A stretch of DNA of 64,000 nt from a bacterium (GCA_963669175.1 OY769902.1:2880001-2944000), one strand, 5' to 3'; shown: positions 35,637 to 59,669, counted from the first letter of the stretch. Notes: generated from the letters alone by a model not told the origin. Program-made: numbers and translations.

Positions 35637-36656
35637 ATGAAACGATCGATGCTGGTGTTGCTCAGCGTAGCGTTTATCCTTGGATTGGCAGGCATGGCGC
35701 TGGCACAAACCCCGGAGATCGAAGCAAAGCTGCAAGAACGCGATGCTCTTCGTGAGAAGATGGCCAACGCGGGTGATGAAACTGAATACAATGCCTTGTT
35801 GGCACAGTGGAATACACTGAACAAGGAAATTGAACAGATGATGTCCGCGATTCAGGCAGATGGAGAGGCCAAATCACGCGCGATCAGCCTGTTTAATGAA
35901 GGTAACGAGGCCATGCGCGCCCGCCGCTATGATGTCGCGGTTCAGAAATACCAGGAATCAGTCAAGCTGAATCCACTGGAAGCACGCTCCTACTACATGC
36001 TTGGTGTTGCCCAGCAACGGATGCGCAACTATGAATCTGCGCTTGAAGCTTATACCCAGGCTACACAACTTGACAACAGCTATGCCAAGGCGCATAACGC
36101 TCGCGGTTTGGTGCTGCGCAGCATGGACCGCTTCGATGATGCCCTGACAGCCTTCCGTTCCACGCTCTCCTCAGAGACGGCAGAGCCGGATGAAAAGGCC
36201 GATGCCTATGCCGGTATGGGTGTTGTCTATTTCGATATGAAGGATTATGAAAAGGCCATTGGCGCTTACGAACAAGCCGTACAGGCCAACCCGGAAGATG
36301 CCGACGCCTATTACAACATGGGCAAAGCCTATGGCGCGCAGTCGAACTGGGAAAGCGCTGTAGAGGCTTATAAGAAATCGACTGAACTGGATGCGAAGGA
36401 TCACAAGTCCTGGACATCCCTGGCCGAAGCCTACAACAAGATCGGCAAGCATTCCGAAGCCGTTTCCGCCGCCAGCGCCGCTACAGGCGTACGCGCCAAC
36501 TATGCCCCGGCATGGTTCGAACTTGGCTGGGCCTACGAACGTATGGGGAACCTGCAGGATGCCCTGAGTGCTTACGAAAAAGCGAAAAATGATCGCCAGT
36601 ATCGTGAACCTGCACAATACCAGATTGACCGGATTAAAGAGGAGATGGGCCGTTAA
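35637..36656 (+). CDS. Secreted TPR-repeat protein
   Basis: Signal peptide (ALA-Q) and about seven TPR repeats. Confidence 0.9.
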   Translation: MKRSMLVLLSVAFILGLAGMALAQTPEIEAKLQERDALREKMANAGDETEYNALLAQWNTLNKEIEQMMSAIQADGEAKSRAISLFNEGNEAMRARRYDVAVQKYQESVKLNPLEARSYYMLGVAQQRMRNYESALEAYTQATQLDNSYAKAHNARGLVLRSMDRFDDALTAFRSTLSSETAEPDEKADAYAGMGVVYFDMKDYEKAIGAYEQAVQANPEDADAYYNMGKAYGAQSNWESAVEAYKKSTELDAKDHKSWTSLAEAYNKIGKHSEAVSAASAATGVRANYAPAWFELGWAYERMGNLQDALSAYEKAKNDRQYREPAQYQIDRIKEEMGR

Positions 36657-36678
36657 CCATCTTCTTCAGATAGATGTG

Positions 36679-36705
36679 AAACGGGCGCTTTCGAGCGCCC
36701 GTTTT
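36679..36705 (+). terminator. Intrinsic terminator
   Basis: AAACGGGCGCT-TTCG-AGCGCCCGTTTT. Confidence 0.85.
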
Positions 36706-36922
36706 GTTGCATGGGAAAATGATGGGACAGCTACCTTTTTCGCAATATAGTATTCTGTAGATCAATAACCATGCAGTATTATCGAAGATGATCAGCCAAG
36801 ATCAGCCTGTTTTAAAGCGAAAAAGCGTAGCAGTCCCCATTTCCTACGGTGAAAAAATTGGACTGTTACCTTTTCTTTTTATATAATGGTTCCCGAAAGC
36901 ATTTGCTGATTCAACAATTATC

Positions 36923-37531
36923 AGCCTGCTTCAGCAGGCTCCTCTTAGCACCCGGCTTCAGTCGGGGTGTAAAAGTGATGGCAATCATTCTGAGCGCGCT
37001 TTAGCGTGCTTGCCTGTTACAAATCCTGGGGCCGGAAAGCACCCTGAAGGGTGCTCACCACTTCTTTATAACCATGAACACCCCGGCTGAAGCCCTGTCT
37101 CTTGCTCACATCTTCGTGTTTCTGCCACCCCAGAGGGGGTGGTAAATTTTAGCGTAGGGTTGACGCTGTCTGTTTAGCGTCTACCCTACGAAAAAGATCA
37201 AACCTTATCTCAACCCTGGAAGGGTTGCATAACGTATAATTTACACCCAATTGGTTTGTATAGAATATAAAATACGTTATTTCCTGTATTTATTGAACGT
37301 ACTAATATGAATCGCGTATTATGCAACCCTTCCAGGGTTGATTATTCGTTAGAATACCTGACATAGTGTACAGGCCAAACAGACGGCCTGTACACTATGC
37401 TAAAATAGGGAATCCCGCCGGGATTCTAAAAATGCTATGTCCACAACTCTTTTACTGATACAGCTTTCAGAAGATGTGGGTAAGAGACAGGGCTGAAGCC
37501 GGGTGTTAAAAAGAGCAGGCTAAAACCTGCT
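36923..37531. repeat. REP family D cluster (AGCCTGCTTCAGCAGGCT / CCCGGCTGAAGCCGGG type), interrupted by a MITE
   Basis: Series of hairpins with TTCA/TGAA loops; one palindrome is split at 37094/37491. Confidence 0.7.
37095..37490. mobile_element. 396-bp non-autonomous element with IS50/Tn5-like ends (IS4 family) carrying REP family E
   Basis: 21-bp TIRs CTGTCTCTTGCTCACATCTTC / CTGTCTCTTACCCACATCTTC. 10-bp direct repeat GGCTGAAGCC on both sides. No transposase. Confidence 0.85.
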
Positions 37532-37790
37532 AAAACTACCAGATAGCAGATTGAAGAAATTACAGTCCAGTAAAGCTTCCATTTGGGAGGAGTTTCACTA
37601 TGACAAGTATGCGAACAACAGAAAACCTACAACCAGTTTGAAACAGCAAGAATATAAATGCAAAACAAGTTAATTAAGGTTGATGAAAAGGTACTGTACC
37701 GGATTTTTCGCCTTCTTGCCTATCTGTGAACACAACAACGTGAAGATTCTGAACAGGGGAAGTTGTTATGGATCGCTTTCCTGAAAAGAT

Positions 37791-37830
37791 AAAAAAAAAA
37801 GTCGCGGACAGGCCGCAGAAACCTGTCCGC
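37791..37830 (-). terminator. Strong intrinsic terminator (minus strand)
   Basis: GCGGACAGG...CCTGTCCGC stem followed by GAC and T10. Confidence 0.85.
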
Positions 37831-38068
37831 AAATGATGGTGCCTAACCGAGGCGGGGCTCAGGGGCACGCAGTCCTGCATCTCAAAAGCCAAACATTGAG
37901 ACGGTAGGGAAAAACGTACCTTGGAGGCCAGCAATTCAACCTGAGGAAGATTGAACACTGGCGATAGCAAGGGAATTCTTTCTCAGCCGCTAAAAGCAAA
38001 GAAGTGTAAAAGAGCTCCTCGGCCTGCCTCCATCTGGTTGTGAACACGGGAGTATATCCCAATTCACA
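37791..38068 (-). ncRNA. Candidate sigma28-dependent structured small RNA (~280 nt)
   Basis: Lies between a sigma28-type promoter and a terminator. Long closing stem plus three internal hairpins. No convincing ORF or RBS. Confidence 0.6.
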
Positions 38069-38074
38069 TACTTA

Positions 38075-38102
38075 TCATCGGCATCTCTACGTGATAGCTT
38101 TA
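38075..38102 (-). promoter_or_regulatory. Sigma28 (FliA/SigD)-type promoter
   Basis: TAAA-N16-GCCGATGA on the minus strand. Confidence 0.65.
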
Positions 38103-38339
38103 GCTTTTTTTGACTTTTATTGAAAGAATTCTGATTTGTATGGTTGAAGAAAGCATGGTGGATTGGGGGTAACCTGTTGTGGTGTCGTTGTTTATGTGTA
38201 TGGCGAGACTCTTGGAGGTATTTCAAAATTAGCGAAAATGTGACTCTGTTGGTAAAGAAAGTTAGAGTTGCTGTGTAGGGATTGTGGCTGTGACGAATAC
38301 TTCACAAACAACGAAATGCCTGCTGGACCATATCGCAGA

Positions 38340-38378
38340 AAGAAAATCGGGTGACCACCAGGTGATCACCCGAAAAAT
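38340..38378 (-). terminator. Terminator of the 2091-aa gene
   Basis: TCGGGTGA...TCACCCGA stem with a minus-strand T-rich tail. Confidence 0.65.
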
Positions 38379-38430
38379 ATGTCGTGTCACATCGCGACTA
38401 CATGCGATGTAAACCGGATTCAACCGTTCG

Positions 38431-41400
38431 CTATTTTATCAGCACCATTCGCTTCAGGTCGGTGAATGGGCCTGCTTGCAGACGGTAGAAGTACATGCCG
38501 CTGGCCAGCCTGGTTGCATCAAAAGTAACGGCATGGAAACCGGCTTCCATACGATGATTGACCAGTTCCATGACTTCCTGCCCCATCACGTTGTAAACTG
38601 TCAGCCTGACATCCTGCGCTTTTACCAGGTCAAACTTGATCTGGGTCGCCGGATTGAACGGGTTCGGGAAGTTCTGGTGCAGCGCGTACTTTGTGGGCAG
38701 GTCAGACGTTTCTTCATCAGCTCCGTAGTAGAAGATGATGGCAACATCGACAACAGGCGGATTGGCCCAGTGTGGACCACCAAAAACCAGCTCTGCGTTG
38801 ATCTCATCACCGGGTTCCAAATCAACCGTATCACCCTTGGTTTGCAGATCAACCGTGATCGTCAGGGTGGTGGATTCACCCGGTTCAAGGAGGCCGGTAT
38901 TGGGCTCGACAAAGAGCCACTCAAGCGGCATGACCGGACCTTCCCAGATGTTGATGTAGTCTGGCTCACCCTGCAGCACACTGGTGATGTCGTAACGAGC
39001 ATGGTGGAACCCCGGGTTGATCTCGAAACCGGCGGAAGAACCGTACTCCGGCAGGTAGAGTTCATGCAGGTTCATTTCCCAGGCCATCTCATCCATGCTG
39101 AACCGGTGTATATAACCGCCTTCGCCATCTTCGTTCTGCGCTAAAGCGTAGATGGTATAGCCTTCGATGTCGAATGGGTTATACGCCAGTCCCAGGAGCC
39201 CGCCGATTCCTTCCGGCATGGGCAGCCCGGAAGAGGCGCCGGAATTAATGTCGTAAAGTGCAAATATCGACTCACCGTCTGACAGGAAAATGTAGCCGGA
39301 ATCATAGTCATAGGCCATTGCACGGCCATAGACGCCAACATTGCCAATCCACTGGTGTGTTGTCAGATCTCGCGAGAAGCGGAAAATGTCACCATCTTCG
39401 TTACAGCCGAACAGTTCTGTGGTTTCAGGGTCATAGGCCATATCCATAATGGCTGATGTGCTGTTGCCCAGCATATCATCAGGATAGGTTCGTGCGGCAA
39501 TCGGTGAACCGTCATGGCTGAACTGGTAGAGGAAATTATCGCCCACATCCTCTGACAGCGCCACGGCTGACACATAGATCCCGTCATCAAGGGTCACTGC
39601 GCCCATGATCCCATCATTCTCGGTTAATGATCCTGCATCGAAGGCAAGCAATGGATCAAACAGTTCATCCAGTTCGCCGCTGACCTGGACTTGCGGTCCA
39701 CGGTTCTGAGCTTTAATGCACAGGTTTGGCCCGGTAAAGGTCGTCCGTTTGGTCATCATCCTTCCGGTGCGTTGAACAACCGGGCTGGCATTCGTTATCC
39801 GTGGTTTACTGGTCTTTTTGTTCGCGTGGAATACAGCATTGTCAACAACCCAGAGATAGGCGCCATATTGCAATGGTCCTGATCCGTTGCTTTCAAGATC
39901 AATATCTGCGAAGCCCGTGGAATCACCTACCATACTATCAATGTCGACCAGAATCTCCAGCGATGTATTGGAGATTTCACCGTCGGGGAAGGACATGGGA
40001 TGGCCGGACTCGTTGGTGAAGTTCACGCTGAGGGTGTCGAACGGCAACAGGGTAACTTCGTAATCTTCATCCCAGTAGTAGATGTATTCGCAACGGATGG
40101 TATTGGTAACCAGTGTATCCGCTGGGATGTTGATCAGGCAATAATACCCGTTGGCGTCTGTATAGGTTTGCATTTCAGGATATTCCAGTACGGAGACCAG
40201 CGCTCCTTCCATGGGCTGATCTTCTGTATCAAACACAAACCCTTCGATCGCCCCACGTGAATCAGGCATGACACCCCAAATCTCCATATTGTCAATGGCA
40301 GCGCCATAATAACCATTGGCGCTTGTATCAGTGCCATGGCGGAATTTCAGGTGGATAGAATCTGCTTCCGCGTATTGCGTCAGATCGAATTCCACACGCT
40401 GCCATCCTCCAGAAGACTGGGTGAAACCTGGCGTGTTGTCCAGGCCTACAACGGTGGCATCGGGATAACCACCAATTGGTGCAATAATGGTCCAGGTGTC
40501 TCCATTGTCAGTCGATATCTGGACATTGTAGCCATCGTACCCGCTCTCATAGGCAATCCAGTGATAATATCCGAGCATGAGATTCTCGCTGATAGGCTCC
40601 CATCCATGGAGGCTTATCATCGAACCGTCATCACTATTCTGGTAATCCGATTCAAGGTAGGTAGCCCACACATAATCCCCTTCATAAGCTTCACCCGGGC
40701 CTGTTGTCGGTTCGCCACATTCCCAGATTGATTCAGGCTCGAAGGTGATATCTTCTTCGGGCACAGCATCCGGTTCAAACCCGCTGAAGAATGGGGGATT
40801 ACCTATCCTGGTGCTTACAGTAAGCACGGAGTCGGATTTATTCATCACTTCGTCAAAAGCAATGATGGCATAAGTATAGTAAGCCGGTTCTATAACACTT
40901 TCATCCCAGGTGGTGGTCTCTGCATCCAGAGTATCCAGAAAGGTAGTGCCACGATACAGAACATAGCCTGCGAGATCGACGCACGGTGAACCGTCAGCGT
41001 TTGTTGTTGGCGCATCCCAGGTAATCGTTGCTGTCTGCGTCAGGTGATCAATGTCAGTCACTTCAAAATCAGAAACACCGGAGGGCGCCATGTTAAATAC
41101 AGCAGTGACAGTCTGGCTTGGATTGGATTCAAATTCAACACCTTCGCTGTCAACCCAGGCTGTAGCGAAAATCATGATATCGCTGTTTTCCAGGTCAGAT
41201 CCAAGATCGAGGAAAAAAGCATCTACCTCAATAGGATCCTCGTTTGCCTGGGAATAGTTTTCGCCTCCATCTGTTGAATACCAGATGTAGTATCCAAGGA
41301 ATTCATCCAGCTCGTTGCGGTTAATGATTCCCTGGCTCCAACCTTGGCGAATTGGCGCTTTGGGGGTATTCAGCGCTGCAACATGACCGTAAAACGGCGA

Positions 41401-44400
41401 CTGATGCGTAGCTGCAACCGGACGCACATCAGAACGCGAGAAATCAGCATTCATACCTGGCGTGAAAGTGTAATCCTGATTTATCTGACCTTCAGAATAA
41501 ACACTTACACGGACCAGCGGATCACCGGTATTTTCAACATGTCGCCATGTATTGTCATCCGTGGAATAGTGGAGAAGCCCCTCATACGCGGCGTCTGCAT
41601 CAACACAGACAGCCTCCCGGCCGCCGCTCTGGGAAAGCCCGGCCCAGAACCTGCCTTCAACTGGTGTGGCTGGATTAACAAGGACCAGCCCATTTTCCGG
41701 TGTCACGATATTTTCGTACAGCAGCGATCCTGGCTGACCATTCTTGTCTGCAAAGATTTTTACTGTGACAGGGTCTGCCGTTGCATCCGGCCACGCGCCC
41801 CATACGCTTGACGGATCTGCTACCTGCCATTCAAGCTGGGCGACAATACCTTCCGAAGAGACCTCAAAGGGGACGGCCCAAGTGACATCTTCTCCTGCGG
41901 CGGGAAGGGTCCAGGCATCAGCCGCGATCCCATCATCGTACTGCATGGCCAGCATGTTGTCGTAGCTGCCGGGAACACCCAGAGCCAGGCCAACGCCATC
42001 ATCATAGTCCCCATCCCAACTGATCAATCTTGGGGCAGTGCGACAGCTAACAGGTGTAAGAACAAAATCGGTCTCTATCTCAAATTCACCTTCTTCCCAT
42101 TGGACATCTTCAACTGAACCTTGCTCGTAACCGTTGGCTTGGCAGAGCAGTGTGTAGGGAGCATTGGCCGTATTGGCCAGCAGGATTTCGTAGTAACCTT
42201 CTTCGTTACTGATGCCAAATGCAGCGGGATCTTCCTGGATGAATACATAAGCATCTGCAACGGGGTTGCCATCAATATCTTCAACCCATCCGATGACATT
42301 GCCATATTCTTCTACATAACGTAGCTGGTAGGTCGTTTCATTGGTAATATCAGCCATGGCGAAAGTCGTTCCGACAGTCCCATCCTGATTCTCAACGCCT
42401 GCGATAGCTCCTGCACGATTATAATAGACCCAGTCATCCGCTTCTTCGTAATTGAAGTAGATGACGTCCGTATCACAATCCAGTACAACCTCATAGCTGT
42501 ATCGGTAACCCGTATTGCCTGAATAGGGCCGTAACAGGAATTGGATAATGATCTGGTTTTCATCTTCGTCCACATAATACCAGATACCAACCCCATCGCC
42601 TGCTTCACCGCCATGGTAGTCGCCGTTTAACGGAACGATAGTTGCGTTTGGATTGCTGGTTGCAGGGAGCGTAACACCAATGTTATTGCTGGTGAAATCG
42701 ATAAAACTCATCCAGCCATTGGTACAGGCGGCAAAACTGGAATACTCGGTGCCGTAGAAATTGAATGACAACGGATCTACGCTGATTTCTCCCGAATTGG
42801 AATCATCACCTGCATCGATGGCAACAGAACCTTCGCCGCCATTATTCGGGTTGATCTCGATCCAGTCGTAATCAATCTCCGTCAGGATGTAACCGCCAGG
42901 GGGAAGGGGGCGTACATCAACCGGGTCCGAAAAGACAAGATAGTCTTCGCCGTAACCGTAGTCCGCAGCAACAGCTACCTGGTACAGATGACCGTTGTCC
43001 AGGCCTGGCAGGGTATAACTGTTCCCGGTTATCAGGAGATCAGCCTGGTATTCCCCATCAAGGCTGATGCGATAGCCGAGAATAGTTTCGATTTCGTCCA
43101 GCTCGTCGGGGTGGTCTGCGAGTGTCCTGTTTTCTTCTCTTTCAAGGAGGTTTTCCAGTGAATGCAAACGCTGTATAACTTCAGGCAGTTTTGCCAATTC
43201 CTGGGGAACAGCGCGCCGTTGAATATCTGCGATAGAAGCATAGTAGTTGTTGATCTCCTCTCGAAGCGCAAGGAGGTTTACTTCCTGGGGAGTGTTGCTG
43301 GGCGCTTCCCAGGAAAGTTCAGCCAAACCATTACCACCGGAAGCGTTAAAAGCCGAAGGAGGGTAGACTTCATGTAGTGTCCATTCTACTTCCAACCCCT
43401 CAACACCCAGATCTACCTCATAGAGATACCGGTCGTGGTATCCTTCCGAACCTGCTGGATCGTGGCTGATGTATACATTATAAAGTCCGACAATCTGTTC
43501 GCCCAGGTCAAACTCGCCGTTGACGTCGGTCGTTGTTGAAACGCCAATCTCATAGAGTGAAATGGTTGCGTCTGCGACAGGCGTGTTTGGGGTGTCGGCA
43601 GAGTACAATGTTCCGGAGAAGAAACCTGTAGTGGTTTCCACATCCATCTCAAAATCGATGACATAGGTGCTGTCTTCCACGACGATGACAGATTCTACCA
43701 TTTCAGGCGAATAGCCGGAACGCCATACAACGACATCGAATGTGTCCTCAACACCGAGAGTAAGCGAGTAATAGCCATTCGTGTCAGTAACTGCTTCATC
43801 GAACAGGATTTCCGTATCTTCATAATAAAGAAGCACATGCGCATCGTCGAGTGAATCACCATTAACGCTTTCTGTTACCGTTCCAGTAATATATGCATCC
43901 TGGAATGAATAGAATTTTATTGCCAATCCGCCATATGGGTAATTTGCAGGATCATTGTTAAAAGAGGCTGTCAACCCAATGCTGCCATCTTCATTCTCTA
44001 TGCCTACCGTTTCACTATCGAAAGAGCCAGCAACACCGGTATAGTCTTCATGATACTGCAAGATGATATTGCCGTTAGGATAGAGGATCGCCTCATATTT
44101 CTGGTCAACCTGGATTACAAAACGACCATCATCGAGTAATTCATAGTACATGTAAGTTGACCAGTCAACGATATGATCATCCCAGTTAATTGCAATCATA
44201 TTATCAGGCGCTATTCCATCAGGCAGTTCGCTGTTGGTCCATTCGACTTCTTCATTGTCGAAGGAGAACCAACCATGGGCGCAGAACCAGAACTGGTCAT
44301 ACTCAATACTATAGAATGAGAAGTCAAAATCAAGGTCGTAAGGCCCCTGAACAACATCAGCTTGCCAGCCATCAGTTTCAGTTCCTGTTTCACTGATGTC

Positions 44401-44706
44401 GATCCAGTCGTATTCAGGCCCGTTATCTTCCTGTGAATCAATAAATTCGTAACCGAATTCGTCCGGACCACCCATCTCATCAAGCTCGTTTCCTGAACCT
44501 CCAAGAATACTCGCTCCGCGCAGGAGTACCAGTTGCGCTTCTGTTAACGCTTCAATGCCTTCCGTTTCCAGAATGAGTGTTGCTTCATCCAGTTGACGGT
44601 AAAATTCCTGGCGTTCAGGGGACAGGCTGGCGGGATCAGTTGCAGCAAAAGCAACTGAAACACCAAGCAGAAGGGAAACAACCAGGATTAATCGGTGTAC
44701 TCTCAT
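38431..44706 (-). CDS. 2091-aa secreted multidomain protein (carboxypeptidase-regulatory-like and FN3-like repeats, jelly-roll module, propeller-like region, T9SS/Por-type CTD)
   Basis: Signal peptide; GGPDEFGY..IDS; repeated TD.NGYY; H....ESGYDG; C-terminal QNFPNPFNP...YNVMGQ...LASGMYFYRL. Confidence 0.9.
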   Translation of the reverse strand: MRVHRLILVVSLLLGVSVAFAATDPASLSPERQEFYRQLDEATLILETEGIEALTEAQLVLLRGASILGGSGNELDEMGGPDEFGYEFIDSQEDNGPEYDWIDISETGTETDGWQADVVQGPYDLDFDFSFYSIEYDQFWFCAHGWFSFDNEEVEWTNSELPDGIAPDNMIAINWDDHIVDWSTYMYYELLDDGRFVIQVDQKYEAILYPNGNIILQYHEDYTGVAGSFDSETVGIENEDGSIGLTASFNNDPANYPYGGLAIKFYSFQDAYITGTVTESVNGDSLDDAHVLLYYEDTEILFDEAVTDTNGYYSLTLGVEDTFDVVVWRSGYSPEMVESVIVVEDSTYVIDFEMDVETTTGFFSGTLYSADTPNTPVADATISLYEIGVSTTTDVNGEFDLGEQIVGLYNVYISHDPAGSEGYHDRYLYEVDLGVEGLEVEWTLHEVYPPSAFNASGGNGLAELSWEAPSNTPQEVNLLALREEINNYYASIADIQRRAVPQELAKLPEVIQRLHSLENLLEREENRTLADHPDELDEIETILGYRISLDGEYQADLLITGNSYTLPGLDNGHLYQVAVAADYGYGEDYLVFSDPVDVRPLPPGGYILTEIDYDWIEINPNNGGEGSVAIDAGDDSNSGEISVDPLSFNFYGTEYSSFAACTNGWMSFIDFTSNNIGVTLPATSNPNATIVPLNGDYHGGEAGDGVGIWYYVDEDENQIIIQFLLRPYSGNTGYRYSYEVVLDCDTDVIYFNYEEADDWVYYNRAGAIAGVENQDGTVGTTFAMADITNETTYQLRYVEEYGNVIGWVEDIDGNPVADAYVFIQEDPAAFGISNEEGYYEILLANTANAPYTLLCQANGYEQGSVEDVQWEEGEFEIETDFVLTPVSCRTAPRLISWDGDYDDGVGLALGVPGSYDNMLAMQYDDGIAADAWTLPAAGEDVTWAVPFEVSSEGIVAQLEWQVADPSSVWGAWPDATADPVTVKIFADKNGQPGSLLYENIVTPENGLVLVNPATPVEGRFWAGLSQSGGREAVCVDADAAYEGLLHYSTDDNTWRHVENTGDPLVRVSVYSEGQINQDYTFTPGMNADFSRSDVRPVAATHQSPFYGHVAALNTPKAPIRQGWSQGIINRNELDEFLGYYIWYSTDGGENYSQANEDPIEVDAFFLDLGSDLENSDIMIFATAWVDSEGVEFESNPSQTVTAVFNMAPSGVSDFEVTDIDHLTQTATITWDAPTTNADGSPCVDLAGYVLYRGTTFLDTLDAETTTWDESVIEPAYYTYAIIAFDEVMNKSDSVLTVSTRIGNPPFFSGFEPDAVPEEDITFEPESIWECGEPTTGPGEAYEGDYVWATYLESDYQNSDDGSMISLHGWEPISENLMLGYYHWIAYESGYDGYNVQISTDNGDTWTIIAPIGGYPDATVVGLDNTPGFTQSSGGWQRVEFDLTQYAEADSIHLKFRHGTDTSANGYYGAAIDNMEIWGVMPDSRGAIEGFVFDTEDQPMEGALVSVLEYPEMQTYTDANGYYCLINIPADTLVTNTIRCEYIYYWDEDYEVTLLPFDTLSVNFTNESGHPMSFPDGEISNTSLEILVDIDSMVGDSTGFADIDLESNGSGPLQYGAYLWVVDNAVFHANKKTSKPRITNASPVVQRTGRMMTKRTTFTGPNLCIKAQNRGPQVQVSGELDELFDPLLAFDAGSLTENDGIMGAVTLDDGIYVSAVALSEDVGDNFLYQFSHDGSPIAARTYPDDMLGNSTSAIMDMAYDPETTELFGCNEDGDIFRFSRDLTTHQWIGNVGVYGRAMAYDYDSGYIFLSDGESIFALYDINSGASSGLPMPEGIGGLLGLAYNPFDIEGYTIYALAQNEDGEGGYIHRFSMDEMAWEMNLHELYLPEYGSSAGFEINPGFHHARYDITSVLQGEPDYINIWEGPVMPLEWLFVEPNTGLLEPGESTTLTITVDLQTKGDTVDLEPGDEINAELVFGGPHWANPPVVDVAIIFYYGADEETSDLPTKYALHQNFPNPFNPATQIKFDLVKAQDVRLTVYNVMGQEVMELVNHRMEAGFHAVTFDATRLASGMYFYRLQAGPFTDLKRMVLIK

Positions 44707-59641: not shown

Positions 59642-59669
59642 CTATCGGCAGGTTGACGTCTGCTCTTTA
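59642..59669 (-). promoter_or_regulatory. Sigma28-type promoter
   Basis: TAAA-N16-GCCGATAG, about 50 bp upstream of ATG 59590. Confidence 0.7.

What the first reader, a model, noticed from the sequence alone, without database searches (positions are those of the whole stretch)
37791..38102. Unannotated sigma28-driven structured sRNA with C/U-rich loops
Seen on the minus strand: TAAA-N16-GCCGATGA (38102-38075), then about 280 nt, then a GC hairpin with T10. The body closes with a long stem (GATGG/CCATC, CCGAGG/CCTCGG, GAGCTC/GAGCCC; 38034 with 37835) around three hairpins (37927-62, 37903-20, 37880-901). Loops and linkers repeat anti-Shine-Dalgarno-like words (UUCCCU, UUCCUC, CCUCC, UUUCCC). 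The upstream giant gene has its own terminator. I cannot match it to tmRNA, RNase P, SRP or a typical 6S rod. Inference: a motility-regulon base-pairing sRNA or a new RNA class. The opposite strand would show GGA loops like a CsrA sponge, but the promoter and terminator favour minus.
Basis: partly seen in the sequence, partly recalled or inferred. Interest (0 to 1): 0.75.

Follow-up and report, generated by a model that had tools for sequence, protein, structure and literature searches.

The report
Flagellar sigma-28 small RNA targeting flagellin
This is a real, previously uncatalogued small regulatory RNA gene that is switched on with the flagellar genes and whose one unchanging unpaired stretch is the exact complement of the first bases of a flagellin messenger RNA in every related genome examined.

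Summary
On the minus strand, a sigma-28 (FliA) type promoter (38103-38075) is followed by a strongly folded RNA of about 275 nt and an intrinsic terminator (37832-37791). No Rfam family matches.

The genome encodes FliA and seven flagellins, and four flagellin genes carry the same promoter motif.

Covariance models find the RNA in 15 of the 16 genomes of this class, always behind the same promoter. Outside the class, only 3 of 63 genomes of the phylum gave matches, all weak.

Most genera have a compact form of about 140 nt. It has a 5' hairpin, a GGAGG box, a covarying hairpin, a near-invariant unpaired CCCUUGCU box and a terminator hairpin. This genus adds about 130 nt.

AGCAAGGG, the complement of the box, sits 7-9 nt after the sigma-28 -10 element of one flagellin gene in all 16 genomes.

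Sibling RNAs share the same box and terminator layout but have sigma-54-like promoters.

No CsrA, FliW, Hfq or FlgM was detected.

My best reading is a FliA-dependent base-pairing sRNA that acts on a flagellin mRNA. Expression and the direction of regulation are untested. It is a new family of a known kind.

The parts
38098..38103 (-). -35 element CTAAAG of a sigma-28 type promoter, preceded by an A-rich tract
   Evidence: AGCT[ACT]AAG is conserved in most of the 15 homologous loci, with AGTTAAAG or CCTCAAG in a few. The same element stands upstream of flagellin genes.
38075..38082 (-). -10 element GCCGATGA of the sigma-28 type promoter
   Evidence: It is unchanged in a relative's metagenome contig whose spacer carries 4 changes. 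A CGA[TA] core is conserved in all 15 loci.
37791..38068 (-). Predicted sRNA transcript, about 275 nt. The 5' end is inferred from the promoter geometry and the 3' end from the terminator.
   Evidence: Fold z = -5.0. 70% identical over its full length in the sister species. Single copy. No Rfam hit.
38040..38067 (-). 5' hairpin, variable in sequence among genera
   Evidence: The three changes seen in a relative's contig (38045, 38046, 38061) keep the pairing.
38027..38031 (-). GGAGG box, conserved in all 15 homologues. Here it lies in the 5' strand (38012-38034) of the long closing stem.
   Evidence: In the family alignment it pairs with a downstream pyrimidine stretch, with 85.7% of cells paired.
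37978..38004 (-). Hairpin A, immediately upstream of the box
   Evidence: The stem sequence differs between genera while pairing is kept: UUCUU/GAGAA, CCUCCG/CGGAGG, UCGGC/GUCGA, UUAGC/GCUAA, CGCC/GGCG. I read this directly from the sequences printed; it was not scored by a tool.
37966..37973 (-). CCCUUGCU box: near-invariant, predicted unpaired, proposed seed
   Evidence: Identical in 12 of 15 homologues, CUCUUGCU in 2 and CCCUUGCA in 1. Unpaired in the predicted folds. Its exact complement AGCAAGGG starts a flagellin leader in 16 of 16 genomes. Sibling RNAs share it.
37927..37962 (-). Hairpin B. It is internal here, but serves as the terminator hairpin in most other genera.
   Evidence: All 13 pairs show changes on both sides across 15 sequences. 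Four pairs are compensated between this genome and the sister species alone.
37864..37920 (-). Hairpin C, a composite hairpin found only in this genus
   Evidence: It has only one-sided changes (G-C to G-U) against the sister species. It has no counterpart in the other genera.
37835..37860 (-). 3' strand of the long closing stem, specific to this genus
   Evidence: It is invariant between the two species of the genus, so there is no covariation either way.
37791..37832 (-). Intrinsic terminator: 13-pair hairpin plus T10
   Evidence: The stem is kept with compensating changes in the sister species, read from the alignment. A relative's contig loses similarity exactly at 37795.

Best explanation
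The interval is the gene of a stand-alone, trans-acting small RNA of the late flagellar regulon.

RNA polymerase carrying FliA (sigma-28) would start at about 38068 and stop at the terminator at 37832-37791. That gives a folded RNA of about 275 nt.

Its functional core is shared with a family of about 140 nt found throughout this bacterial class. The core consists of a GGAGG box, a hairpin, the unpaired box CCCUUGCU (37973-37966) and a further hairpin.

I propose that the box is a seed. It would pair with AGCAAGGG at the extreme 5' end of the leader of the sigma-28-transcribed flagellin mRNA of the main flagellar cluster (G000:C1:2843144). Neighbouring bases extend the duplex to 9-13 pairs. 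A weaker second site, GCAAGG, lies next to the Shine-Dalgarno sequence in about half of the genomes.

FliA would then drive both the flagellin mRNA and an RNA that acts on it, which is a feed-forward loop. The outcome would be a change in translation or in decay that depends on RNase E/G or RNase III.

What is shown here by sequence:
- the promoter and the terminator;
- the fold and its covariation;
- the distribution across the class;
- the complementarity to the flagellin leader.

What is inferred:
- that the RNA is transcribed;
- the exact ends of the transcript;
- that pairing occurs in the cell;
- the sign of regulation. I lean towards repression, by analogy only.
For: Promoter.
- fliA is present.
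- The motif T[ACT]AAG-N14-15-[GT]CCGAT[AG] has 26 hits in the genome. Four lie upstream of 4 of the 7 flagellin genes and one is this RNA.
- A[AG]AAGCT[ACT]AAG, 14-15 nt, then a CGAT-type -10 is conserved upstream of all 15 homologues.

RNA gene.
- Fold z = -5.0 and a real terminator.
- Model R3 finds the RNA in 15 of 16 class genomes, missing only G002. It gives 3 weak matches in 63 other genomes of the phylum.
- On the 15-sequence alignment, 87.3% of cells are paired against 72.9% in shuffles. 15 of 18 pairs have changes on both sides. 0 of 500 shuffles reach the observed values, and slid controls give 38-59% paired.
- Neighbouring genes differ from genome to genome, and there is no conserved ORF.
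- A relative's contig carries few changes inside the RNA and many just upstream of the promoter. It loses similarity right after the terminator.

Target.
- 18 of the 48 flagellin upstream regions read hold AGCAAGG or GCAAGGG. 17 of these sit 7-9 nt after a sigma-28 -10 element, with at least one in each of the 16 genomes.
- In this genome, only that flagellin has the box within 60 nt of any of the 26 strict motif hits.
- The box is unpaired in nearly all of the 16 leader folds.
- Cognate duplexes average -24.6 kcal/mol, against -10.2 +/- 3.0 for shuffled sRNA windows.
- Sibling RNAs share the hairpin, CCC(C)UUGCU box and terminator layout but have sigma-54-like promoters. They occur in four relatives and in this genome. 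RpoN is present.
- No CsrA, FliW or Hfq was detected.
Against: - No RNA-seq run holds the locus, so transcription, the transcript ends and the strand rest on sequence alone.
- G002 has the flagellin box but no detectable sRNA. G017, from another class, has a near-identical box (UGCAAGGGGUUC) and no credible R3 match. The box can therefore persist without this sRNA and may serve another purpose.
- Cognate sRNA-mRNA pairs are no more stable than non-cognate pairs (-24.6 against -24.0 kcal/mol). There is thus no co-variation between the partners, only joint invariance.
- Genome-wide target scans give no signal beyond this site. Duplex energies against 3757 predicted start regions are no better than for shuffled seeds. 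7-mer complements occur in 34 start regions against 13-34 for controls. AGCAAGGG near start codons occurs 5 times out of 122 against 5-11 for controls.
- The site lies 25-30 nt upstream of the Shine-Dalgarno sequence, so simple occlusion of the ribosome site is not obvious.
- The genus-specific closing stem and hairpin C have no covariation support.
- The strict promoter regex is not enriched genome-wide: 26 hits against 9-39 for scrambled controls.
Confidence: 0.62

Rival explanations
1. It is a genuine FliA-dependent sRNA, but the flagellin leader is not its main target. On this reading the AGCAAGGG box of the flagellin mRNA is conserved for its own reasons, such as a protein site, a translation enhancer or a preferred initial transcribed sequence. 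The sRNA would then act on other mRNAs or on a protein.
For: The box persists in G002 and in G017, where no sRNA was detected. The two partners show no co-variation. The site is distant from the start codon.
Against: The only near-invariant unpaired 8-mer of the sRNA is the exact complement of the only invariant 8-mer at the start of the leader, in 16 of 16 genomes. The other sigma-28 flagellin promoters and the sRNA's own promoter lack the box, so it is not a general feature of sigma-28 transcripts. Siblings with other promoters keep the same box.
Confidence: 0.2
2. It is a protein-binding or sequestering RNA, in the manner of CsrB/RsmZ or 6S. The purine-rich GGAGG and GAGGAG boxes would be the binding sites.
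For: GGAGG is conserved in all 15 homologues. The RNA is highly structured. No Hfq was found, so another partner protein is conceivable.
Against: No CsrA and no FliW were detected. There are only about 3 GGA motifs, mostly inside stems. No Rfam match to CsrB/Rsm or 6S families was found. The fold is a multi-branch junction, not a 6S-like rod.
Confidence: 0.08
3. It is a cis-acting leader, a riboswitch-like attenuator or a small-protein mRNA, rather than a trans-acting RNA.
For: The fold is long, and a terminator follows the structured part. ORFs of 67 and 98 codons overlap the interval.
Against: Nothing codes downstream on that strand. The next 1.1 kb consists of repeats. The flanking genes differ in all ten loci that were read. 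The ORFs are not conserved in length, frame or sequence. Indels against the sister species are of 4, 3, 3, 1, 4, 1 and 1 nt. No riboswitch family matches.
Confidence: 0.04
4. It is not a functional RNA: a chance promoter-like and terminator-like pair around conserved intergenic DNA.
For: There is no expression data. The strict promoter regex is not enriched genome-wide.
Against: It is conserved in 15 of 16 genomes in differing contexts, with compensatory changes. In a close relative, conservation begins at the terminator and falls off upstream of the promoter, so the conserved block matches the predicted gene.
Confidence: 0.03

Closest known systems
Campylobacter jejuni CJnc170 (FlmR, FliA-dependent) and CJnc230 (FlmE, RpoN-dependent); Konig et al. 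2024, PMC11187230 (abstract and outline read)
   Same: Both systems have small RNAs wired into the flagellar sigma-factor hierarchy, one under sigma-28 and one under sigma-54. Both act after transcription on flagellar gene expression, in a bacterium that does not rely on Hfq (the Hfq point for Campylobacter is recalled, not from a call).
   Different: Sequence relatedness was not tested directly, but no Rfam family matched. Here the two RNAs are siblings with one shared box, not two unrelated RNAs. The proposed target is a flagellin leader rather than flgM. CJnc230 is processed from the flgE mRNA, whereas this RNA has its own promoter and terminator. The sigma-54 assignment here rests on a promoter-like motif alone.
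[quoted passage not shown] 2023, PMC10578931 (abstract and outline read)
   Same: They are sigma-28-dependent base-pairing sRNAs that modulate flagellin levels and flagellar synthesis.
   Different: The E. coli RNAs are derived from UTRs and bind Hfq. This one is a free-standing gene, in a genome where no Hfq was detected. It belongs to a distant phylum that has a type IX secretion system.
sRNAs that pair with the extreme 5' end of a target mRNA: RoxS with yflS in Bacillus subtilis (Durand et al. 2017, PMC5419742; search listing and start of abstract seen) and FasX with ska in Streptococcus pyogenes (recalled)
   Same: The predicted pairing site is in the very first bases of the mRNA, well upstream of the ribosome binding site.
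   Different: Those cases work by blocking the 5'-3' exonuclease RNase J1. No RNase J was found here: the best match scored 23 bits against a cut-off of 400. RNase E/G is present. The sign of regulation here is unknown.
CsrA-FliW control of flagellin translation (B. subtilis hag, C. jejuni flaA; PMC4894983 seen in a search listing only, details recalled)
   Same: In both, a flagellin leader carries two related purine-rich sites, one upstream and one at the Shine-Dalgarno sequence. Here they are AGCAAGGG and GCAAGGAGG. Both systems are used for post-transcriptional control of the flagellin.
   Different: That regulator is a protein. No CsrA or FliW was detected here, and the element complementary to the sites is an RNA.

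Membership tests
Sigma-28 (FliA) dependent promoters | -35 TAAA(G) and -10 GCCGATAA-like elements separated by about 15 nt (consensus recalled from E. coli and B. subtilis) | tested here: met
   CTAAAG, 15 nt, GCCGATGA at 38103-38075. The spacing is 14-15 nt after the G in all 15 homologues.
Sigma-28 (FliA) dependent promoters | The sigma factor is encoded in the genome | tested here: met
   TIGR02479 scores 252.7 bits against a cut-off of 189.6. It is above the cut-off in 13 of the 16 class genomes.
Sigma-28 (FliA) dependent promoters | The same motif drives late flagellar genes in the same organism | tested here: met
   4 of 7 flagellin genes carry it within 300 nt upstream. It also stands upstream of many flagellin genes in the relatives.
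Sigma-28 (FliA) dependent promoters | Transcription depends on FliA | not testable with these tools
   No RNA run was listed, and no mutant data exist.
Trans-acting base-pairing sRNA | An independent gene with its own promoter and terminator, without conserved neighbours or a conserved ORF | tested here: met
Trans-acting base-pairing sRNA | A conserved, accessible seed with a conserved complementary site in a target mRNA | tested here: met
   CCCUUGCU is unpaired and near-invariant. AGCAAGGG is found in a flagellin leader of 16 of 16 genomes.
Trans-acting base-pairing sRNA | Co-variation between the seed and the target site | tested here: not met
   The core is invariant on both sides. Cognate and non-cognate duplex energies are alike, -24.6 against -24.0 kcal/mol.
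Trans-acting base-pairing sRNA | A demonstrated transcript and a demonstrated regulatory effect | not testable with these tools
   No RNA holder was listed.
Hfq-dependent sRNAs | Hfq is present in the genome | tested here: not met
   PF17209 gave 0 matches in a genome that is 95.9% complete.
CsrA-sequestering RNAs (CsrB/RsmY/RsmZ type) | Many GGA motifs in loops, and CsrA encoded in the genome | tested here: not met
   No CsrA or FliW was detected. There are few GGA motifs and most lie in stems. No Rfam hit.
Housekeeping and catalogued RNAs (tmRNA, RNase P, SRP, 6S and all 4227 Rfam 15 families) | A covariance-model match at the gathering score | tested here: not met
   The 64-kb window gave 0 matches. 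At E up to 10, the only match on the RNA is tfoR at 20 bits against a gathering score of 70, and it lies over the terminator.

The most novel reading that the evidence does not exclude
This bacterial class may have replaced the protein checkpoint on flagellin synthesis (CsrA-FliW) with an RNA one. Sibling small RNAs carrying one common seed, one driven by sigma-54 and one by sigma-28, would clamp the first bases of the major flagellin mRNA. In the genus of this window, the sigma-28 sibling has gained a 130-nt domain that wraps the seed inside a multi-helix junction. That would make seed exposure conditional, so the RNA would act as a sensor-like riboregulator rather than a plain sRNA.
Probability: 0.15. 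Interest if true: 0.8.

Novelty: new member of a known kind. Interest (0 to 1): 0.6.

Why it matters
Very few regulatory RNAs are known outside Proteobacteria and Firmicutes. This lineage has type IX secretion and is represented mostly by genomes assembled from metagenomes, and I know of none described for it.

Here a whole sRNA family emerges from sequence alone: its promoter class, its core structure, a sibling under another sigma factor and a specific, conserved candidate target.

That makes one question directly testable. How is flagellin output tuned in bacteria in which CsrA, FliW, FlgM and Hfq cannot be detected?

It also adds an independent case of sRNAs wired into the sigma-54/sigma-28 flagellar cascade, which has so far been worked out in Campylobacter and E. 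coli.

The family and its alignment could be deposited as a new covariance model.

Tried and rejected
- Rfam: scans at gathering score and at E up to 10 gave nothing credible.
- Genome contigs pattern scan: it returned only the two relatives already found.
- Metagenome contigs pattern scan: all 7 hits were chance matches in unrelated coding-like DNA, and model R1 matched none of them.
- Sequencing runs: no RNA holder was listed. The contigs laid were DNA or of unknown kind. Run X4 has a 267-nt contig over 37750-38012, but its kind is not on record, so I draw nothing from it.
- The genome search at 'order' and 'class' level returned the same 16 genomes as 'family'.
I built a shorter one instead.
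- Target prediction:
  - The exact 8-mer complement is not enriched near start codons: 5 of 122 occurrences, against 5-11 for controls.
  - Duplex energies against 3757 predicted start regions are no better than for 5 shuffled seeds.
  - 7-mer complements occur in 34 of 3757 start regions, against 13-34 for controls.
  - A 98-codon ORF with a perfect site (G000:C1:4572280) shows no obvious link to flagella and was not followed further.
- CsrA sponge on either strand: rejected.
- FlgM: not detected by Pfam. FlgM is poorly conserved, so this is weak evidence.
- 5'-exonuclease protection model: weakened, because RNase J was not found.
- Conserved synteny: none.
- R3 at E up to 10 in G017, G019 and G002 gave only coding-like false matches.
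- The pattern was mis-specified. It asked for AACCC[CT]TTGC and so missed AACCCTTGC. It produced one lead only (L141).
- Earlier-findings look-ups by place and by sequence held nothing on this locus.

Full report
**1. What is in the sequence**

Read on the minus strand, the interval holds CTAAAG (38103-38098), then 15 nt, then GCCGATGA (38082-38075). About 275 nt follow, ending in a 13-pair G+C-rich hairpin (37832-37802) and T10 down to 37791.

The 285-nt stretch folds with a minimum free energy of -106.4 kcal/mol and z = -5.0 against 200 dinucleotide shuffles, none of which folds as well. The plus strand gives z = -3.8.

The predicted fold has these parts (coordinates):
- a 5' hairpin, 38067-38040;
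- inside that stem, hairpin A (38004-37978), an unpaired linker holding CCCUUGCU (37973-37966), hairpin B (37962-37927) and a composite hairpin C (37920-37864).

The giant gene upstream (38431-44706) encodes a protein with a type IX secretion sorting domain. It has its own terminator at 38373-38347.

Downstream, nothing codes on the minus strand. Positions 36700-37730 are nested repeats present in dozens of copies in the genome, whereas the RNA is single-copy.

**2. Known families**

No Rfam 15 family reaches its gathering score anywhere in the 64-kb window. With permissive filters on 36600-38500, the only match on the RNA is tfoR at 20 bits against a gathering score of 70, and it lies over the terminator.

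**3. The organism and the promoter**

The genome is one contig of 5.45 Mb with 50% G+C. It encodes:
- FliA, at 252.7 bits against a cut-off of 189.6;
- RpoN;
- seven flagellins and a FlgL-like protein;
- type IX secretion cargo proteins.

No FlgM, CsrA, FliW or Hfq was detected with Pfam models.

Reading upstream of the seven flagellin genes showed a shared motif. Written as T[ACT]AAG-N14-15-[GT]CCGAT[AG], it has 26 hits in the genome. Four lie upstream of four flagellin genes and one is the RNA's promoter.

The regex as such is not enriched genome-wide: scrambled or re-spaced controls give 9-39 hits. The argument rests instead on where the hits lie. Four of seven flagellin genes carry a motif that occurs about once per 400 kb of strand.

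Other intergenic hits precede genes with no evident flagellar link and may be chance.

**4. Relatives**

BLAST found a 70%-identical full-length copy in the sister species G001 and a fragment in G004.

Three successive covariance models widened the search:
- R1, built on the core of the two species;
- R2, built on the 5' domain of three sequences;
- R3, built on ten sequences from the GGAGG box to hairpin B.

With R3, 15 of the 16 species genomes of the class have a match. In this collection the class equals one order and one family. G002 is the only miss.

Of 63 other genomes of the phylum, 3 have weak matches at E 0.02-0.06. I read two of them and they show neither the promoter nor the boxes. 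The third is a partial match to the hairpin and was not read.

All 15 copies are preceded, 45-58 nt upstream of the GGAGG box, by an A-rich tract, AGCT[ACT]AAG (AGTTAAAG or CCTCAAG in a few), 14-15 nt, and a -10 of the type [GT][CT]CGAT[AG]. Single-base variants GACGAT, GTCGAT, ACCGAT and GCCGAA occur.

The neighbouring genes differ between genomes, so the RNA is not the leader of a conserved gene. They include a type IX cargo protein, MTHFR, a multi-haem cytochrome, an LVIVD protein, an HDOD protein and others.

The longest sense ORFs differ in frame, place and sequence in the 15 copies. Indels against G001 are of 4, 3, 3, 1, 4, 1 and 1 nt.

**5. Architecture of the family**

In most genera the RNA is compact, about 140 nt. 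It has a variable 5' hairpin, the GGAGG box, hairpin A, (A)ACCCUUGCU, and hairpin B followed by a U-run, so that hairpin B is the terminator.

In the genus of the window (G000 and G001), hairpin B is not followed by U's. The RNA continues through hairpin C, the 3' strand of the closing stem and a new terminator. G004 is intermediate.

On the model-fitted alignment of the 15 copies:
- 87.3% of cells form standard pairs, against 72.9 +/- 1.6% in shuffles;
- 15 of 18 pairs show changes on both sides;
- no shuffle out of 500 reaches any of the five measures;
- sliding the 3' partners by 1-3 columns drops pairing to 38-59%.

All 13 pairs of hairpin B covary. The GGAGG box pairs with a downstream pyrimidine stretch, mostly through G-C to G-U changes.

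This alignment is fitted to the model, which favours its structure. The slid controls are the fairer comparison.

The many G-U pairs argue for the minus strand.

Hairpin A is not in the model. Its stem sequence changes between genera while pairing is kept. I read this from the sequences, and no tool scored it.

The genus-specific closing stem and hairpin C have no covariation support. They are invariant or change on one side only between the two species.

**6. A close relative from a metagenome**

A 1093-nt contig of a marine metagenome run covers 37795-38246.
- Inside the RNA it differs at few places. Three lie in the 5' hairpin (38045, 38046, 38061) and keep the pairing.
- It has four changes in the promoter spacer.
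- It has none in the -35 or -10 elements.
- It has about thirty changes in the 140 nt upstream of the promoter.
- Similarity ends right after the terminator.

The conserved block is thus the predicted gene. Twenty-one further differences were not shown by the tool.

**7. The box and its complement**

CCCUUGCU is identical in 12 of the 15 copies, CUCUUGCU in two and CCCUUGCA in one. It is unpaired in the predicted folds.

I read 48 of the 65 flagellin upstream regions of the class. Of these:
- 18 hold AGCAAGG or GCAAGGG;
- 17 hold AGCAAGGG 7-9 nt after the -10 element of a sigma-28 type promoter, which places it in the first bases of the transcript;
- each of the 16 genomes has at least one.

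In this genome the gene is the flagellin at G000:C1:2843144, 27 kb from fliA.

Further observations:
- Of the 26 strict promoter hits in this genome, only this one has the box within 60 nt.
- The genome holds 122 copies of the 8-mer on both strands.
- Flanking bases extend the complementarity. There are 13 perfect pairs in G005 (GGAACCCCUUGCU with AGCAAGGGGUUCC) and in the g11 genus (AACCCUUGCUGUC with GACAGCAAGGGUU). There are 9 pairs here, counting one G-U.
- Cognate duplexes average -24.6 kcal/mol, against -10.2 +/- 3.0 for shuffled sRNA windows. Non-cognate pairs give -24.0, so the partners are jointly invariant rather than co-varying.
- The box is unpaired in nearly all of the 16 leader folds.
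- The Shine-Dalgarno region of about half of these leaders reads GCAAGGAGG, a weaker second site.

**8. Siblings**

R3 also found second copies in G013, G014, G015 and G008. They share only the hairpin, the GGAACCCUUGCUAC box and the terminator. They lack the sigma-28 motif and instead have GGCA[CT]-N5-T[TC]G upstream, which resembles a sigma-54 promoter.

A regex scan of this genome found one such RNA at G000:C1:3454550-3454662. It has TGGCATAATAATTGT upstream, the box ACCCCUUGCU and a U7 terminator, and no long ORF around it. A further candidate lies near 3170735-3170880 on the minus strand.

Sibling RNAs that keep one short stretch while everything else differs are what one expects of a seed.

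The sigma-54 assignment rests on the motif alone. The -12 GC is present in only one of the five.

**9. Results against the reading**

- No RNA run holds the locus.
- G002 has the flagellin box but no detectable sRNA. G017, from another class, has UGCAAGGGGUUC after a sigma-28 -10 and no credible R3 match.
- Genome-wide target scans show no enrichment.
- The site lies 25-30 nt upstream of the Shine-Dalgarno sequence.
- RNase J, which underlies the known 5'-end protection cases, was not found. RNase E/G is present.

**10. Mechanism proposed**

FliA transcribes both the flagellin mRNA and this sRNA. The unpaired box would pair with the first bases of the leader, and perhaps with the weaker site near the Shine-Dalgarno sequence. 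That would change translation or decay.

The direction is unknown. The only precedent I have read is that overexpressing the FliA-dependent CJnc170 of Campylobacter reduces filament length and motility (PMC11187230, abstract). That makes me lean slightly towards repression, which would form an incoherent feed-forward loop limiting flagellin output.

**11. Comparison and novelty**

Sigma-28-dependent sRNAs are known in E. coli (PMC10578931, abstract) and in Campylobacter (PMC11187230, abstract).

This is a new, unrelated family of that kind, with these distinguishing features:
- it is a free-standing gene;
- it has a sibling under a sigma-54-like promoter with the same seed;
- its predicted site is at the extreme 5' end of a flagellin mRNA;
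- its host has no detectable Hfq, CsrA or FliW.

I found no description of it. My searches were the two literature queries, the Rfam scans and the scan's own notes. The organism's name is not known to me, so I could not search by name.

Noticed in passing
window 36700-37730: The 1.1 kb between the RNA's terminator and the convergent TPR gene is made of nested non-coding repeats. A 400-nt element (37081-37505) has about 20 copies at 97.5-99.5% identity plus about 10 more at about 89%. It is inserted into an older element (36882-37094 plus 37491-37653) that is contiguous elsewhere in the genome. A short repeat at 37656-37731 has about 70 partial copies. In a marine metagenome run, contig depth is high over 37400-37550.
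   Followed up: partly
G000:C1:3454550-3454662 (+), outside the window; relatives L064, L065, L066, L068: A sibling small RNA of about 100 nt. It has a hairpin, ACCCCUUGCU and a terminator with U7, behind a sigma-54-like motif (TGGCATAATAATTGT). Its box pairs 10 nt perfectly with the same flagellin leader.
   Followed up: partly
G000:C1:3170735-3170880 (-), outside the window: A possible third RNA with AACCCCUUGCU followed by a strong terminator hairpin and U7. No promoter was recognised.
   Followed up: no
L141 (G017:C45, another class of the phylum): AACCCCUUGCA sits in the loop of a hairpin in an apparently intergenic stretch. It is complementary to that genome's flagellin leader box UGCAAGGGGUU. 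This may be an unrelated RNA with the same seed, or chance: it is 1 of the 8 matches to the pattern in that genome.
   Followed up: no
whole genome G000: This flagellated organism has FliA, RpoN and seven flagellin genes, but no Pfam-detectable FlgM, CsrA, FliW, Hfq or RNase J.
   Followed up: partly
window 59643-59669 (-): A second hit of the strict sigma-28 motif in the window (TAAAG-N15-GCCGATA), about 480 nt upstream of a NadA-like gene. It is probably chance.
   Followed up: partly
copies of the 400-nt repeat, e.g. window 37085-37100: One end of the abundant 400-nt repeat reads CTGTCTCTTGCTCAC, which contains CUCUUGCU, the box variant seen in two sRNA homologues. I take it for coincidence.
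   Followed up: no
window 38431-44706 (-): A 2091-codon gene with CarboxypepD_reg repeats, a MAM-like domain and a type IX secretion C-terminal sorting domain. In G013 the RNA also lies downstream of a type IX cargo gene, but there is no general synteny.
   Followed up: partly
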